63,656 nt of DNA, filler included, from Reclinomonas americana ATCC 50394 (GCA_048213135.1; 14 parts of 14 records of this genome joined end to end with filler, not necessarily neighbours in it), one strand, 5' to 3'; shown: positions 16,120-25,750, counted from the whole stretch's first letter. Translations and numbers: made by a program. Notes: a model not told the origin generated them from the sequence alone.

Positions 16120-19100
16120 TCACATTACTGAACACCCACGCTGGTGTGGACAAATTTCGGTTGCGGCTTGATCACGACGGCGTCGGCACTCGGCCAGCCA
16201 CTTAATAGCCTGCACTGTCTTCGGATGCTCTTCTCCAAACATCGCTCGTCGACCATCCACACACTCCACCCGTAGTGCCTCTGCCTCGGCCCATCGTTGC
16301 TGCTTCGTGAGCACAATACTGAAGTTATACATTGTCGCCAATGTTTGTTCATGCCTGTCACCCAGCACCTCTCGATATCCCTCCAAACAGTGACGGTACA
16401 AATCAGCGGCTTCTGCCAGCGATTCGCATGTATTTTGTTGATAGACAGAAACAGCAAGATTGCCCATCGAAGCAAGAGTGTCAGGATGCCGATCTCCCAG
16501 AGCAGCTCGCTGCAACTGCAGGCATTCCCGTTCCAGTCGAATCGCTTCTTCCAGTCGACTGCCATCTTTGATACATAAAGCAACAGCTCCCATGGACATC
16601 AAAGTGTCTGAATGCTCAGCTCCAAGAACCCGTCGTCGCATCTCCCAACACCGTCGGAAGAGTGCCTCAGCATCAGCATACTGCTGTCCAAGATAGTGGT
16701 GCCAAGCCTGCTGATGCAACGTCGCCAGCGTGTCCGGATGGTACTCACCCAGTGTCTCACGCTGCCGCTCGTGACATCGCACCAGGAGCGGCAACTTGCC
16801 AGAATAGAAAGCCAACCGCATCAAGCAGCGGAACGCGTCAATCCTATCCAACACAGTCATCACGGCACTGTCACCTTTCTTCCGTTCCAAACACAAATGC
16901 CACGCCTGTTGCCACGCAGCCTCACGTTCATCCCACATACGAAGCATCTCAAACAACCGCGCTCGACATCTCGCCACGACCACGGCGAGCCGTCGCCGCA
17001 CAGGACTCCTACCGACGTCAGACCTTCCAAGATGTTCACACTCTGTCATACGTCGCACCAGCAACGATGCCACTGATTCGTCGAAACCGACCGTAGGCAG
17101 TCTTCCCAAGGCACATTGCTCACCAATCCACTCCACCGCCCCACACTGCACCAGCAAGCCATTCACACCAACCACATCACTCGCCCACATGTCGTTATCC
17201 TCACCTAACCGTCGCCACACTATGTAAAGCACACTGAGCAAGTCTCGTGACACGAACAGCACACCGTCACTGTCATTTCGATCAATGCCATTCAGCACCC
17301 AGCACACCAGTCGCACGATCAGTCTCCGCCCCCGTGACACTGCATCCCCGCACCGTCCCACAATCCACCCAGCAATCTCGTCGTGCACTCGATACTCCAC
17401 TGCCTTCCTGCCACTCTCCCCCACATGCTCATCACACAACACACGAGCCACACTGTCCATGCTGCCACTGACACCCACCGTCACCAGATTCGACGAGCAC
17501 AGACCCTCCAGCACGTCCTCCACTCCTTCATCACAACCACCACCACCAATCACCAACTCATCACGCCGTGAACGTACTCGCTGCTCCTCCTCCTCACTAA
17601 TCTCATCAAATTGCAGTTGCTCGCCCACAACCTCGAGCGCACGCCGTCGTCTCTCCTGTGCCAGCTCATGCAATCGCAGTCGACGCACACACTGGCCCAA
17701 CTCCACCAGTCGACTTGCCGCCTCCTCATCTTCATCCACTGCCGCCTGCTCACCATCACCACCACTCGCAGACATCCTCATATCGGGAATTACTCGCAAC
17801 ACACCATGCGCCACTCGTGCGAGTGCCAATGTCACTGGTAAGCCGAGCTCCTTGCACGCCGTGATCAGCACCAACAGACGACGTGCTGCAGCTGTCTGCG
17901 ACATCACATTGCGTTCCAGCAGCTGCGACAGAGCATCGCCACCGATGCCACTCAACGCCTCCTCCAATCGTACTCCCACCAGCTGTGCTGGTGATTGTGA
18001 CAACAGCCAGCTGCATGACGAAGAAGAAGAGAAGAAGAACAGTGAGTCTTCTCATCCGCACCACTCACTCTTGCTCATACACTCACCCAACACAAGCACT
18101 CACTCGCAGTGCACTCTTCTCCTGCTGTCCACCCTCCAGTGCCTCCACAATCCGTCGTCGAACATCCCCCGACACCTTGTGGAGCAGCCGCTCCTCCACC
18201 AGCTGCACAATATCCCCGTTCTCCACACTCTCCACTCGCACACACTCCACCTCCGCCTCGTGCATCATCGAGTCGCGTATCTCATCCGCCACTTGTCCAT
18301 GTCGACTCGTCACCACCACAATCGGTGCCACCATTCCACCTGCATGGAGATACGCACATGATGCATATCAAGTCAGGATCCAACATCCAATCAAGAATGC
18401 GAATTCTCTATCATGACAAACGCACCCTCATCAGCACACTGAACGACCGTCCTCACTTGCTCCGCCGATCCCACATTGTCCAGCACCATCACTCCGCTCG
18501 ATGAGTGTATCAGCTGTTGCAGAAGACGATGTGCTGGCTCCACCTCGCCACTCGCCAGCAGCGCATCCACTTGATTGGCCATCCTCCGTCCCTCCACTTC
18601 GTCCACGCGCATCTGCGCCGACACAAAGGCACGAAGACACTCGCCAAGGGCACTCTCCGCCTGCGCAATGTGGCAGGGAGAGAGAGAGAAAGAGTCAGAA
18701 GGAGTGACGCAACATGAAAGACATTATGCATGTTCTTCAGCACACCTTCACATGCTCCCTCGCATCACCCACATGACCACGCATCTCCACCGACACGGCC
18801 GATCCCTTCCATCGACGGGTCGCCTGCAACTCGGTCACCAGCAGCTCGGCCAAGAATGACTTGCCAGTGCCACCATCGCCCGTCAGCACCACAATGATTG
18901 GACGATGTGCTGTGCAAGTAACATCCACCACAGACAAACATGATGAGACACATGAATGTGGAGAAGGAAGGGAGAAAGAGAATGAACACCCAACCTTCCA
19001 CAGCATCCACGACGCGCGTGGCAAGTGAGGCTGCCATTGCACGACGACTCGGGAAGCGGAATGTGGTCACTGGATTGACGGTGCGGGCGATGAGTGGTGT

Positions 19101-20357
19101 CATGGATGGGTGACTGCTGTCTGGTGCTGCGTGTCACAGAGAGAACAAGGGTGAGAACAGCAATGCACATTGAATGCAGATCTATCATGGAGCGCACCTG
19201 CAGCTGAGAAAGAAGAGGGAGAGATGCTCATCTGGTCGTCTGCTTCGTGCACTTCCATTAGCATCTGGTCAAGCACAAGCAAGTGAGAAACAATTAGCCA
19301 TCTGCAAGCGACCGCCCTCCCTCATGCATTCTCACTCAACTTGCTCCACATTGGCCGCTATCGATGCCTGGTCTTCTTGACTCAGCGGAACTGCATTCAC
19401 ATACAACCAAGACAGCATCAGCTTCCACATTCAACCAAATCATCCACACACTCAAGCGCCAGTTATCTTTCTCTCCGCCACTCACCATCACGAGCCTCGT
19501 TCAGCTGCACCACCAATTCCTCCCCCACATCCCTGCCAATCTGCAGTCGCCGCACAAGCTGGTGCAACTCGCCCTCTCCTCCTCCGGCACCGAGCAGAGG
19601 CGCAAAGAGTGCACGAGCTCGTGCGGGACTCGCCTGCTCAAACACCTCCTGCAGTCGCTCAATCGCATCGCGCTGTGACAACAAGAGAGTGAGAGGCATG
19701 ATCACACAGAGAGGGAGATCCCACTCTTCCTTCCTTCCCATCCCCTTCCCATTCTCAACACACTCACCACATCACCAGCTGGAATCAGACGATCCGGCTC
19801 GTCTCTCGGGTGCTCTCGATGACCCGCCAACAGCAAGATCGAACAGCACAGCATCGCATCAAACGAACTGCAGTCGTGCAGCTGGCCTCGTTGATGCCAC
19901 TCGCGCACCAGCTGACGCTCCTCCTCGTTCAACTGGACACACATGTCCACTCCATCCGGCATGGTGCTGTATGTGGGAAGAAGGCACAAGGAAAGACAGG
20001 TAGTTAGTGAGTGCGACAAGAAAGAGAGGGGCATTCATCAGGGATAGAATGCGGAGTAGTGTGGTGAGACAATGAAGAGTGTGAGAATGGGGAGAAGGGG
20101 TGACCAGTGCAGTCACCAGCTGCATTGGCCTGTGGCTCTTCTCTCTCATTCACATCTCCATTCTGCATCTTGACAGTGTGTGCTCCCATATCCTCCCCAC
20201 ACACTCACCGCACATCACGCTCGCTCGGCGCCTTGCACCACTCGGCAACATGATTCACACCGGGATACGAATCGAGAAACGCCGGCAGCACTTGCTCGAG
20301 TTTCGATTGCAGAGCGCGGGTGCATGGACGAGACAAGGCATTGGCGAGGCGCATCAT
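16120..20357 (-). CDS. NLR-like STAND protein copy A: N-domain + NB-ARC + TPR repeats, multi-exon (start uncertain)
   Basis: Walker A VVLTGDGGTGKS (~18870), Walker B VMVLDNV (~18480), IVVVTSR, GLPVTLAL, YRVHDEIA (MHD-like), five LGxxHPDTL-type TPRs. Ends ...RGCSVM*. Confidence 0.85.
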
Positions 20358-20922
20358 GCATTCTTCATCACCACCATCGTGATGATGACTGTGTGAGAGA
20401 AGAGAGGAGGGGAGAGAGAGAAGGAACAAATCAGACACAATGTGAGAATGATGATGATGATGAATCGAGACAACAACACAATGAGAGAGACACGCAACTC
20501 ACGCGGCACTCCACTTCCACTCGCCATGATGATGCGTCACAACAAGAGCAACAACAACAGCACGCTGACAGACGCACAGGGGAATGACTCTCTCTCTCTC
20601 TCTCTCACAATATAAGAAGCGGAGAAATGCAACAGCTCCCTCTCCTTCTCCTTTCTCTCTCTTTGCACACGCAGTGGGGAATGACACTGAAACAGAACAG
20701 AACAGGGAACAGGCAAGCTCCTGCTCACACGCTGCCCTTATTTACACAATCCTGGGACAAGACTTCGTCGGAGTGAATGCGGGCTCACAAGACAGGAACA
20801 GAATGTCGCCGTGGAGGGAGACTTGTTCTTGTATGCACACTGTGCCATGACACACGTTACAGTGGAGACTGATAGTCAAGACGAAACGTCGAGAGATAGT
20901 TTGAGCGACAGAGAGGTCAACT

Positions 20923-25349: not shown

Positions 25350-25390
<41 letters not shown>

Positions 25391-25695
25391 AAAATAAGAC
25401 GCGGAGAAATGCAACAACTCGCTTTCCTTCTCTCTCTTTTACCTCTTGCACACGCAGCGGGGACTGATACTGACACAGACCGAGAACAGAGAACGCACAA
25501 GCTCACTTCTGCTCACACGCTGCCCTTATTTACGCAATTGTGGGACACGACTTCGTCGGTGTGCACGCTGGTTCAAGATCACAAGACAGGAACAGAGTGT
25601 CGCCAAGAAGATGTGTGCCTTCATTGTGCACTGTGCTGTGAAACATCGGCAATCAAGATGAAACGTCGAGAAAAATCGTCAAGAGCTGGTTCAAG

Positions 25696-25750
25696 GAGCC
25701 ACTTGATCTTCACCGTGTCTGAATGCTCTTCCCCAAGCACCAAGTCCACC
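25696..25750 (-). pseudogene. Relic of the last TPR of a third NLR-like copy
   Basis: VDLVLGEEHSDTVKIKWL resembles FGEEHPKTVQAIKWL (copy A) and LGEEDPDTLNTIKWL (copy B), one repeat period from the end of copy B. Confidence 0.7.

What the first reader, a model, noticed from the sequence alone, without database searches (positions are those of the whole stretch)
16120..25750. Tandem array of NLR-like (NB-ARC + TPR) genes in a protist
Seen: two ~4.78-kb direct copies with matching exon structure and the NB-ARC motif series (GDGGTGKS, VMVLDNV, VVTSR, GLP, VHD) followed by five LGxxHPxT-type TPRs. By eye the N-terminal and P-loop exons are nearly identical while the region after VHD and the TPRs differ much more. 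Established: fungal and bacterial NLR-like STAND proteins use this tripartite layout with variable sensor repeats. Inference: an innate-immunity or allorecognition locus in a microbial eukaryote.
Basis: partly seen in the sequence, partly recalled or inferred. Interest (0 to 1): 0.72.

Follow-up and report, generated by a model that had tools for sequence, protein, structure and literature searches.

The report
Tandem NB-ARC/TPR receptor-like gene pair
Two neighbouring, intron-rich genes of an unidentified eukaryote encode NLR-like ATP-switch proteins with a tetratricopeptide-repeat sensor, a gene type already known from fungi, brown algae and amoebae, here with an unrecognisable front domain and a mosaic duplication history.

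Summary
One gap-free 11.3-kb contig (15133-26452) carries two head-to-tail copies (16177-20810 and 20953-25604, 81% identical). Each is an intact 10-exon minus-strand gene of 1108 or 1099 codons, with 9 of 9 introns GT-AG.

The C-terminus has five 42-residue TPR_10/TPR_12 repeats and folds like kinesin-light-chain TPRs.

The ATPase module fits an NB-ARC profile built from 22 Pfam-verified bacterial domains (hhalign 97.8%, 37 bits). It fits a matched NACHT profile of 24 domains much less well (6 bits, P-loop only). Pfam could not be run on the spliced protein.

The front ~235 residues and the middle ~400 residues have no detectable relatives.

The uneven divergence is real but is not diversifying selection. 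dN/dS is below 1 in every window. Neutral divergence jumps from 19% to 45% at residue ~746, which indicates gene conversion or a swapped sensor module.

An immune or allorecognition role is inferred by analogy only. "Protist" could not be tested. Verdict: a new member of a known kind, of moderate interest.

The parts
16120..20357 (-). Copy A gene, ATG to stop: 10 exons, 1108 codons. Exons (high-low): 20357-20209, 19966-19768, 19672-19486, 19390-19341, 19264-19198, 19126-18995, 18909-18746, 18660-18426, 18339-18087, 18010-16120.
   Evidence: Spliced model with 9 of 9 GT-AG introns and an open frame. The exon lengths equal those of copy B, and indels lie only in introns. No RNA evidence.
20923..25144 (-). 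Copy B gene, ATG to stop: 10 exons, 1099 codons. Exons: 25144-24996, 24744-24546, 24450-24264, 24171-24122, 24046-23980, 23913-23782, 23693-23530, 23435-23201, 23110-22858, 22786-20923.
   Evidence: 77.2% protein identity to copy A (847 of 1097 aligned residues).
18995..20357 (-). Copy A exons 1-6: N-terminal region, residues 1-261. It comprises a conserved part of ~178 residues (exons 1-3), a divergent linker (exons 4-5), and the pre-P-loop segment with an 'FRFPSRR' motif (exon 6).
   Evidence: Exons 1-3 scanned singly have no family in Pfam, PADLOC or NCBIfam; exons 4-6 were not scanned with spliced coordinates. dN/dS is 0.24 over exons 1-3. The FRFPSRR segment aligns to the 'F-x-G-R' segment that precedes the P-loop in the NB-ARC profile.
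18087..18909 (-). Copy A exons 7-9: nucleotide-binding domain. Walker A GDGGTGKS at 18857-18880, Walker B VMVLDNV at 18472-18492, sensor-1 VVVTSR at 18302-18319.
   Evidence: hhalign against the NB-ARC profile: 97.8%, E 7.8e-13, 150 columns. hmmsearch: 36.8 bits over residues 239-412. The NACHT profile gives 5.9 bits. dN/dS 0.12.
16825..18010 (-). Copy A exon 10, first ~395 residues: helical middle region carrying the 'ELGLPVT' (residue 533) and 'RVHDEI' (686) strings. It is presumed to hold the ARC and winged-helix parts plus a helical linker.
   Evidence: No relatives in 1.84 billion representative proteins, the word-indexed search or metagenome contigs. AlphaFold pLDDT is below 50. Residues 498-546 give a weak match (-2.0 bits, i-E 0.13) to the GLPL segment of the NB-ARC profile.
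16186..16824 (-). Copy A TPR sensor: five 42-residue TPR_10/TPR_12 units, residues ~875-1087.
   Evidence: Pfam TPR_10 E 9.1e-27 and TPR_12 E 2.1e-25. Units listed. pLDDT 81-95. Foldseek best match is the KLC1 TPR domain 7ai4_A, E 6.8e-9, TM 0.79.
20962..21600 (-). Copy B TPR sensor: five units, collinear with those of copy A.
   Evidence: Pfam TPR_10 E 1.3e-29. Each unit A_i matches B_i at 57-76% identity, against 21-43% for all other unit pairs.
17185..17211 (-). Divergence breakpoint in copy A, at codon ~746 (about window 21987 in copy B). Upstream the copies differ at 18.7% of fourfold sites; downstream at 44.8%.
   Evidence: 67 of 358 against 47 of 105 fourfold sites, chi-square 28.3, P 1e-7. 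Best single breakpoint at residue 746. Genomic identity drops from 84% to 62% between windows 17382-17186 and 17185-16986.
20469..20554 (-). Conserved 86-nt upstream block of copy A (its counterpart in copy B is 25238-25323). It contains an ATG followed 25 nt later by a GTGAGT donor: a possible 5' exon or upstream ORF.
   Evidence: 93% identity (family D19) against 69-75% in the surrounding upstream region. Sequence read. The splicing is inferred, without RNA support.

Best explanation
The locus holds two tandemly duplicated, intact paralogous genes of a eukaryote. Each encodes a ~1100-residue STAND ('NLR-like') protein with four parts:
- an N-terminal region of ~235 residues with no recognisable family, presumably the output or effector module;
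- an NB-ARC-type P-loop ATPase;
- a helical middle region of ~400 residues;
- five kinesin-light-chain-type 42-residue TPR repeats.

Most likely mechanism, inferred from how characterised STAND/NLR proteins work (my own knowledge of the family, not tested here): the TPR array holds the ADP-bound protein in an off state. Binding of a ligand to the TPRs allows ADP-to-ATP exchange at the NB-ARC domain. The protein then oligomerises and brings the N-terminal modules together to signal.

The biological role is a guess by analogy with fungal, brown-algal and bacterial NB-ARC/TPR proteins. It could be sensing of microbes or viruses, or non-self recognition.

The pair evolves as a mosaic. The promoter-to-residue-745 part was homogenised by gene conversion or duplicated later. 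The last ~360 residues (helical linker plus TPR sensor) are about three times more diverged at neutral sites. Both parts are under purifying selection.
For: Gene structure:
- Two collinear copies, 81.25% identical over 4721 columns.
- Intact 10-exon models with 9 of 9 GT-AG introns each.
- Exons 1-9 have equal lengths and no indels, while all 9 introns carry gaps.

TPR sensor:
- TPR_10 E 9.1e-27 and 1.3e-29; TPR_12 E 2.1e-25 and 4.1e-23.
- Five units per copy.
- Confident fold of residues ~400-618 of exon 10. It matches the KLC1/KLC2 TPR domains and the Podospora anserina TPR repeats 4y6c/4y6w.

ATPase domain:
- Against 7 Pfam-checked bacterial NB-ARC-TPR proteins, hhalign gives 95.7%, score 68.6, 156 columns. 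Thirty column-shuffled controls averaged 14.6 (maximum 22.2). Without the P-loop the score is still 37.3.
- Against 22 NB-ARC domains from unnamed actinobacterial genomes: 97.8%, E 7.8e-13, 150 columns; hmmsearch 36.8 and 37.1 bits.
- Against 24 NACHT domains from the same genomes: 64.7%, 35 columns; 5.9 and 6.4 bits.
- The aligned motifs are the pre-P-loop F-x-x-R, Walker A, Walker B (VLDN) and sensor-1 (VTSR).

Selection and history:
- Overall dN 0.141, dS 0.452. NBD dN/dS 0.12 and TPR 0.27. All 35 windows are below 1.
- Mosaic divergence at fourfold sites: 67 of 358 against 47 of 105, P 1e-7, breakpoint at residue 746.
- Transition/transversion ratio 1.79 against 1.14, as expected if the 3' part is older.

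Literature:
- NB-ARC-TPR genes are proposed immune receptors in Ectocarpus, where 12 of 24 loci are clustered (PMC3341825, passages).
- One homologue is reported in Acanthamoeba (PMC4053784, passages).
- NB-ARC associates preferentially with 42-residue TPRs in fungal NLRs (PMC4986451, passages).
Against: - No expression or splice evidence: no RNA run was listed, so the gene models rest on comparison of the two copies only.
- Pfam's own NB-ARC model could not be run on the spliced protein. On the P-loop exon alone it scores 11.5 bits, against a cut-off of 23.5.
- phmmer of residues 1-880 against the 106 retrieved proteins, which include those carrying PF00931, found nothing.
- The NB-ARC and NACHT reference profiles also match each other (96.9%, score 82.6). 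The assignment therefore rests on a score difference between related families.
- The GLPL and MHD equivalents are not established. Two different placements of GLPL came out, and the second implies an ~85-residue insertion after sensor-1.
- The N-terminal region has no known effector fold, so the output is unknown.
- There is no sign of diversifying selection, no repeat shuffling and low internal repeat similarity. The hallmarks cited for immune NLR sensors in Ectocarpus and fungi were therefore not seen, although two sequences cannot reveal site-wise selection.
- Many bacterial NB-ARC/TPR proteins are transcription regulators rather than immune sensors (my own knowledge).
Confidence: 0.6

Rival explanations
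1. The architecture is the same, but the role is not immune. The proteins would be ligand-gated STAND switches in ordinary signalling or regulation, as with bacterial AfsR/MalT-type regulators or animal NPHP3-like TPR proteins, and the duplication would be a neutral tandem copy.
For: Purifying selection acts throughout, including the TPR part (dN/dS 0.27). The TPR units are collinear and not shuffled. Only two copies are visible. No known death or effector domain appears in the N-terminal exons tested singly (exons 1-3). The nearest profile relatives are actinobacterial NB-ARC proteins, many of which are regulators (their function is from my own knowledge).
Against: No DNA-binding or other regulatory domain was detected either. 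Tandem paralogues with a swapped or older sensor half are typical of NLR clusters. Eukaryotic NB-ARC-TPR families have so far been discussed as immune or non-self receptors (PMC3341825, PMC4986451).
Confidence: 0.25
2. The genes descend from a bacterial NB-ARC/TPR gene acquired by lateral transfer and later given introns. This concerns origin and is compatible with either function.
For: The only detectable relatives of the TPR part are mostly bacterial or metagenomic kinase-TPR or NB-ARC-TPR proteins, at 22-44% identity over 19-41% of the query. The TPR part matches NCBIfam FxSxx_TPR at E 2.1e-29. The NBD matches an actinobacterial NB-ARC profile. The Acanthamoeba genome paper reports intron gain in laterally acquired genes (PMC4053784, abstract and passage).
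Against: No eukaryotic reference profiles were available for comparison, so the bacterial likeness is not a phylogenetic result. TPR_10/12 repeats are consensus-like and match across kingdoms; Rhizoctonia also appears. The front and middle regions have no bacterial relatives. Nine introns and the contig's composition are ordinary for the eukaryote-like contigs of the window.
Confidence: 0.15
3. Assembly artefact: two diverged haplotypes, or two dispersed paralogues, wrongly joined head to tail.
For: The window is a bin of short unplaced contigs joined by linkers and includes bacterial-like contigs. The only public run that holds the stretch covers 348 nt of it, so the junction has no independent support.
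Against: No N lies within 15133-26452. Divergence is far above allelic levels: 19% overall and 45% at fourfold sites in the 3' part. Homology ends at the gene's 3' end and ~450 nt upstream of the ATG, and the flanks are not duplicated, which is the pattern of a tandem duplication and not of alleles.
Confidence: 0.04
4. One or both copies are unexpressed pseudogenes or decaying duplicates.
For: No RNA evidence was available. Exons 4-5 (dN/dS 0.57) and some windows of the middle region (0.94 at residues 631-692) are weakly constrained.
Against: Both frames are intact over ~3.3 kb with all 18 splice sites canonical. dN/dS is 0.05-0.15 across the ATPase domain.
Confidence: 0.05

Closest known systems
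Fungal NB-ARC-TPR NLR-like proteins (Dyrka et al. 2014, PMC4986451; Podospora anserina TPR repeats, PDB 4y6c/4y6w)
   Same: Tripartite layout: variable N-terminal domain, NB-ARC, then 42-residue TPR motifs of the kinesin-light-chain type. The paper notes that many fungal N-terminal domains are also unannotated. The predicted TPR fold matches 4y6c/4y6w.
   Different: Repeats here share only 21-43% identity with each other, unlike the highly conserved (over 85%) repeats the paper highlights. No repeat-number difference between the copies. No sequence similarity outside the TPR part and the NBD core. No test of positive selection at sites was possible.
Ectocarpus siliculosus NB-ARC-TPR family (Zambounis et al. 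2012, PMC3341825)
   Same: NB-ARC fused to C-terminal TPRs in a non-plant, non-animal eukaryote. Paralogues are physically clustered (12 of 24 loci in that paper). Proposed as candidate pathogen receptors.
   Different: In Ectocarpus each repeat is encoded by its own exon, and exon shuffling with diversifying selection is reported. Here all five TPRs lie in one exon, are collinear between the copies, and show dN/dS of 0.27.
Bacterial NB-ARC-TPR STAND proteins (actinobacterial AfsR-like/SARP-NB-ARC-TPR, TIR-NB-ARC-TPR and FxSxx-system TPR proteins, as retrieved)
   Same: The best profile match of the ATPase core covers the pre-P-loop motif, Walker A, Walker B 'LDN/LDD' and sensor-1 'TSR'. The TPR_10/TPR_12 array is the same kind; FxSxx_TPR matches at E 2.1e-29, below its cut-off.
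   Different: Eukaryotic gene with 9 introns. There is no BTAD, TIR or HTH N-terminal domain. The region between sensor-1 and the TPRs is much longer and unalignable.
Plant NLRs and Apaf-1/CED-4 (the proteins on which NB-ARC was defined)
   Same: Same ATPase clade by profile, and the same general switch logic (inferred).
   Different: No LRR or WD40 sensor, and no CC, TIR or CARD domain was detected. The GLPL and MHD equivalents are not established. There were no hits to solved structures by sequence for single exons.

Membership tests
STAND / NLR-like tripartite protein | N-terminal module, then a central P-loop NOD ATPase, then C-terminal superstructure-forming repeats, all in one polypeptide | tested here: met
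   The spliced models of both copies give one open frame that joins the N-terminal region, the P-loop domain and five TPRs. The models are comparative, without RNA support.
NB-ARC (PF00931) | Score above Pfam's gathering threshold (23.5 bits) on the domain | not testable with these tools
   The domain is split over exons 7-10, and joined sequences could not be handed to the Pfam tool. The P-loop exon alone scores 11.5 bits, E 0.17. Exons 8 and 9 and the first 410 residues of exon 10 give no NB-ARC hit.
NB-ARC (PF00931) | Homology of the ATPase core (pre-P-loop, Walker A, Walker B hhhhD, sensor-1 TTR/TSR) to verified NB-ARC domains, better than to NACHT | tested here: met
   Profile of 22 Pfam-matched NB-ARC domains (8 of 30 loci dropped because the script picked a frame without a P-loop): hhalign 97.8%, E 7.8e-13, 150 columns; 36.8 and 37.1 bits. 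Profile of 24 NACHT domains (6 of 30 dropped): 64.7%, 35 columns; 5.9 and 6.4 bits. Caveat: the two reference profiles also match each other (score 82.6).
NB-ARC (PF00931) | GLPL motif in the ARC1 helical domain | tested here: inconclusive
   'CKELGLPVTLALARVA' (residues 530-546) aligns to the profile's 'cGgLPLalriaaarla' but scores only -2.0 bits, i-E 0.13. A forced hhalign instead put GLPL at residues ~463-470. The first placement implies an ~85-residue insertion after sensor-1.
NB-ARC (PF00931) | MHD motif at the end of the winged-helix (ARC2) domain | tested here: inconclusive
   'RVHDEI' is present in both copies, but no profile or structural alignment reaches it. AlphaFold pLDDT is below 50 there, and there are no sequence relatives.
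NACHT (PF05729) | Profile match beyond the P-loop | tested here: not met
   5.9 and 6.4 bits; 35 aligned columns around the P-loop only. Pfam NACHT on the P-loop exon: 14.4 bits against a cut-off of 26.7.
TPR_10 / TPR_12 (kinesin-light-chain-type 42-residue TPR) | Pfam score above threshold, and the TPR solenoid fold | tested here: met
   TPR_10 scores 92.7 and 101.7 bits (cut-off 27.5). TPR_12 scores 89.1 and 81.8 bits (cut-off 30.1). Foldseek best match 7ai4_A, E 6.8e-9, TM 0.79.
Ectocarpus-type NB-ARC-TPR receptors | One exon per TPR repeat, with exon shuffling | tested here: not met
   All five repeats lie in exon 10. Unit i of copy A pairs with unit i of copy B.
Fast-evolving immune NLR sensor | Diversifying selection (dN/dS above 1) on the repeat domain | tested here: not met
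   TPR dN/dS is 0.27, and all 35 windows of 60 codons are below 1, with a maximum of 0.94. Two sequences cannot detect selection at single sites.
Immune or allorecognition function | Induction by, or a phenotype on, microbial, viral or non-self challenge | not testable with these tools
   No RNA run is listed for the stretch. No genome or population data are held.

The most novel reading that the evidence does not exclude
The pair belongs to a lineage-restricted NLR family whose ~180-residue conserved N-terminal module is a new kind of effector or signalling domain. No relatives were found in Pfam, PADLOC or NCBIfam, and the middle region has none in 1.84 billion representative proteins. Its members would diversify by exchanging a whole 'helical linker plus TPR' sensor cassette at a fixed hinge about 57 residues after the VHD motif. 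A conserved short upstream ORF that ends on the main ATG might add translational control.
Probability: 0.2. Interest if true: 0.55.

Novelty: new member of a known kind. Interest (0 to 1): 0.35.

Why it matters
NLR-like STAND receptors are central to immunity in plants, animals, fungi and bacteria. Their distribution and their output domains in microbial eukaryotes are poorly charted.

This pair adds an intact, selectively constrained NB-ARC/TPR example from a eukaryote whose proteins are not in the large public collections searched. Its N-terminal module matches nothing known.

If the module proves to be a new effector, or if sensor-cassette exchange proves general in this genome, the locus would inform how NLR repertoires diversify outside the model kingdoms. 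As it stands, it is a well-documented instance of an architecture already described in fungi, brown algae and Acanthamoeba.

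Tried and rejected
- Whole-genome paralogue count: no genome is held for the window. Within the window, tblastn finds only the two copies.
- Word-indexed protein search with exon 10: 106 hits, all on the TPR part only (19-41% of the query). With residues 15-420 there were no hits.
- Exhaustive phmmer of the 410 non-TPR residues of exon 10: 0 hits in 1.84 billion representatives.
- Metagenome contig scan with the A/B alignment: 594 pattern matches, none confirmed.
- phmmer of residues 1-880 against the 106 retrieved proteins: nothing.
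- Single-exon scans: Pfam at E up to 10 gave only generic P-loop hits. PADLOC and NCBIfam gave nothing for the N-terminal exons. phmmer against PDB sequences gave only chance-level hits.
- AlphaFold of exon 10 with a two-row alignment: mean pLDDT 55, and only the TPR part is usable. No fold evidence was obtained for the ARC or winged-helix part.
- ESM Atlas, leads only. The 410-residue region sits nearest TPR-type clusters (0.96). Exon 9 sits nearest assorted STAND NTPase clusters (nSTAND1, NB-ARC, NPHP3_N, NACHT) at 0.75-0.82, below the reliable range.
- Sequencing runs: no RNA holder was listed. There is one DNA study with a small share.
- Laying its three runs gave a single 348-nt contig at 20059-20407, so the A/B junction is neither confirmed nor refuted.
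- Taxonomy via a CLU-domain exon from another contig: no hits.
- Rfam and tRNA scans of the window: nothing.
- Earlier findings of the scan: none for this genome or sequence. The word search returned unrelated bacterial STAND reports.
- The search for related loci with a NACHT-like protein gave only 3 loci, so the reference sets were taken with the genome search instead.
- The first NACHT comparison with single sequences was not a fair control, because single NB-ARC sequences also aligned only at the P-loop. Matched profiles replaced it.
- RIP-like hypermutation as the cause of the divergent 3' part was rejected: the transition/transversion ratio is lower there, not higher.

Full report
SETTING
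The 63,656-base window is not one molecule. Thirteen linkers (44 N, TTAATTAATTAA, 44 N) join 14 contigs. The finding lies on one gap-free contig, 15133-26452. No whole genome is held for the window, and the scan has no earlier notes on it.

Other contigs carry eukaryotic genes: synaptobrevin, CLU, TBP and WD40. Several contigs with 62-64% G+C carry bacterial-type genes: HAMP sensor, rhomboid-TPR, FAD oxidoreductase and IclR. The assembly is therefore a eukaryote with bacterial contigs in its unplaced bin. I could not name the eukaryote: a search with a CLU exon found nothing, and Rfam and tRNA scans were empty. "Protist" remains untested.

THE OBSERVATION
A self-comparison of the contig gives a single alignment, 16177-20810 against 20953-25604, 81.25% identical over 4721 columns. 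The repeat finder had shown the same as 15 collinear blocks spaced 4769-4787 nt apart.

Reading the minus strand, I built one gene model per copy.
- Each model has 10 exons, and all 9 introns of each copy are GT...AG with a CAG acceptor.
- Copy A is 1108 codons (20357 to 16120) and copy B is 1099 codons (25144 to 20923).
- Exons 1-9 have exactly the same lengths in both copies and align without a single gap.
- Each of the 9 introns (66-251 nt) has 2-13 gap columns.

That pattern is strong comparative support for the exon boundaries. There is no RNA evidence, because no RNA run was listed.

tblastn finds no further copy in the window.

NOT HAPLOTYPES
- Homology stops ~55 nt (copy A) or ~30 nt (copy B) inside the 3' end of the coding sequence and about 450 nt upstream of each ATG.
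- The sequence downstream of copy B is the upstream region of copy A. It has no likeness to the sequence downstream of copy A (224 of 542 aligned positions).
- Divergence (19% overall, 45% at fourfold sites in the 3' part) is far beyond allelic levels.
- The public reads found cover only 348 nt, so the junction has no independent confirmation.

WHAT THE PROTEINS ARE
C-terminus:
- Pfam TPR_10 (E 9.1e-27 and 1.3e-29) and TPR_12 (E 2.1e-25 and 4.1e-23).
- NCBIfam FxSxx_TPR matches at E 2.1e-29, below its cut-off.
- An AlphaFold model of exon 10 is confident only here (pLDDT 81-95).
- The best Foldseek matches are the kinesin light chain TPR domains (7ai4_A, E 6.8e-9, TM 0.79). The Podospora anserina TPR repeats 4y6c/4y6w also match.

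ATPase:
- The domain is split over exons 7-9 and the start of exon 10. Spliced (joined) sequences could not be handed to Pfam, the structure tools or the large searches.
- Exon by exon, Pfam sees only a generic P-loop: AAA_22, AAA_16, nSTAND3 and NPHP3_N below threshold, and NB-ARC at 11.5 bits.
- I therefore compared profiles inside the script box.
- Against seven bacterial NB-ARC-TPR proteins whose NB-ARC domains I had checked with Pfam, hhalign gives 95.7%, E 8.9e-9, score 68.6 over 156 columns.
- Thirty column-shuffled queries scored 14.6 on average, with a maximum of 22.2. With the P-loop removed the score is still 37.3 on the same template columns.
- For a fair family control I took 30 NB-ARC and 30 NACHT domain loci from 41 unnamed actinobacterial genomes.
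- I dropped 8 and 6 loci where my script had picked a frame without a P-loop, and built one profile from each set.
- The NB-ARC profile matches at 97.8%, E 7.8e-13, 150 columns, with 36.8 and 37.1 bits in hmmsearch.
- The NACHT profile matches at 64.7%, 35 columns around the P-loop, with 5.9 and 6.4 bits.
- The aligned features are the F-x-x-R segment before the P-loop, Walker A GDGGTGKS, an 'MRG' segment, Walker B VMVLDNV with the following 'aeQVR', and sensor-1 VVVTSR.
- Caveat: the two reference profiles also match each other (score 82.6), so this is a score difference between sister families, measured with bacterial references only.

Beyond sensor-1 the assignment is open.
- 'CKELGLPVTLALARVA' lines up with the profile's GLPL segment by eye but scores only -2.0 bits.
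- A forced alignment placed GLPL about 65 residues earlier.
- Nothing reaches the 'VHD' string.

Orphan parts:
- The first 410 residues of exon 10 have no relative in the word-indexed collection, in 1.84 billion representatives read by phmmer or in metagenome contigs.
- The ESM Atlas puts them nearest TPR-like helical clusters, which is a lead only.
- The three conserved N-terminal exons (residues 1-178) match nothing in Pfam, PADLOC or NCBIfam. The output module is unknown.

HOW THE COPIES DIVERGED
Protein identity by region:
- residues 1-178: 91.0%
- residues 179-217: 53.8%
- residues 262-479: 90.4%
- residues 480-745: 79.9%
- residues 746-880: 57.0%
- TPR part: 66.4%

dN/dS by region:
- whole gene: dN 0.141, dS 0.452
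- exons 1-3: 0.24
- exons 4-5: 0.57
- ATPase exons: 0.12
- residues 480-720: 0.41
- residues 721-880: 0.27
- TPR part: 0.27
- None of the 35 windows of 60 codons exceeds 1 (maximum 0.94).

What changes along the gene is the neutral rate.
- dS is 0.15-0.5 up to residue ~720 and 0.75-1.7 between residues 723 and 992.
- At fourfold-degenerate sites, 67 of 358 differ before residue 741 and 47 of 105 after it (chi-square 28.3, P 1e-7).
- The best single breakpoint is residue 746, and genomic identity falls from 84% to 62% at window ~17185.
- Introns of the 5' part are mostly 78-82% identical (range 65-93%), in line with its fourfold sites.
- The transition/transversion ratio falls from 1.79 to 1.14, as expected for an older, more saturated 3' part and not for a transition-biased hypermutation.
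- The five TPR units are collinear: A_i against B_i is 57-76% identical, and all other pairs are 21-43%.

The simplest reading is an old duplication whose 5' 3.7 kb was later homogenised by gene conversion, or an exchange of the 3' 'linker plus TPR' cassette with another paralogue. Both halves are under purifying selection. It is not supported as evidence of diversifying selection, although two sequences cannot reveal selection at individual sites.

MECHANISM
- Shown: an intact, constrained P-loop ATPase of the NB-ARC type, fused to a TPR array and an unknown N-terminal module.
- Inferred from established knowledge of STAND/NLR proteins (not tested here): the repeats keep the ADP-bound protein closed. 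Ligand binding permits nucleotide exchange and oligomerisation, which clusters the N-terminal modules to signal.
- Speculative: the ligand and the biological role. Immunity or non-self recognition is plausible by analogy with Ectocarpus NB-ARC-TPR genes (24 loci, 12 clustered; PMC3341825, passages read) and with fungal NLRs, where NB-ARC associates preferentially with 42-residue TPRs (PMC4986451, passages read). The Acanthamoeba NB-ARC-TPR homologue is listed among candidate pattern-recognition receptors (PMC4053784, passages read). A regulatory, non-immune STAND role is the main rival.

COMPARISON AND NOVELTY
The architecture is known. The locus differs in three ways:
- from Ectocarpus: there is no exon-per-repeat structure and no shuffling;
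- from the fungal cases highlighted by Dyrka et al.: internal repeat similarity is low;
- from bacterial relatives: there are nine introns and no BTAD, TIR or HTH head.

Its distinctive points are the orphan N-terminal and middle regions and the sharp mosaic breakpoint. The literature searches were for 'NB-ARC-TPR' (20 papers) and for 'NB-ARC, protists, TPR, NLR' (8 papers). I read passages only, and no supplements.

VERDICT
This is a new member of a known kind, with interest 0.35.

Noticed in passing
window 7510-7609, 9468-9567, 12734-12833, 15033-15132, 26453-26552 and 8 more: The window is a chain of 14 contigs joined by 13 identical linkers (44 N + TTAATTAATTAA + 44 N). Neighbourhood across a linker therefore says nothing about synteny. 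Several contig ends sit in (GA)n or (GGA)n-type simple repeats.
   Followed up: yes
window 7610-9229 (-), 9609-11882 (+), 13811-15028 (+), 62363-63256 (+): Contigs with 62-64% G+C carry long intron-free ORFs with bacterial-type domains: HAMP, Rhomboid+TPR, an FAD-dependent oxidoreductase (DAO) and an IclR regulator. They are probably contigs of an associated or contaminating bacterium placed in the eukaryote's unplaced bin.
   Followed up: partly
window 3879-4400 (+), 1788-2933 (-), 50400-51724 (-), 61421-61966 (-), 40699-42621 (-): Eukaryote-type exons lie on other contigs: synaptobrevin, WD40 propeller, CLU (clustered mitochondria), TATA-binding protein, and a long ORF with a GEVED domain. 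Most other long ORFs of the eukaryote-like contigs have no Pfam family.
   Followed up: partly
window 20469-20554 and 25238-25323 (minus strand): An 86-nt block upstream of each gene is 93% identical, against 69-75% around it. It holds an ATG followed 25 nt later by a GTGAGT donor. If spliced to the conserved CAG acceptor 31 nt before the main ATG (exon would begin at 20388 and 25173), it gives a 19-codon upstream ORF in both copies. The TGA stop of that ORF overlaps the main ATGATG start. This is inferred from the sequence only.
   Followed up: partly
copy A residues ~413-497 (window ~18285-17960, spanning intron 9): If 'ELGLPVT' is the true GLPL motif, about 85 residues are inserted between sensor-1 and the ARC1 helices. 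That segment itself looks like a second, degenerate ARC1 start, and a forced alignment placed GLPL there. A partial internal duplication is possible.
   Followed up: partly
window 19673-19767 and 24451-24545 (intron 2): Intron 2 has the same length (95 nt) in both copies and is 92.6% identical, clearly above the other introns (65-88%). It could be a recent conversion tract or a conserved element.
   Followed up: no
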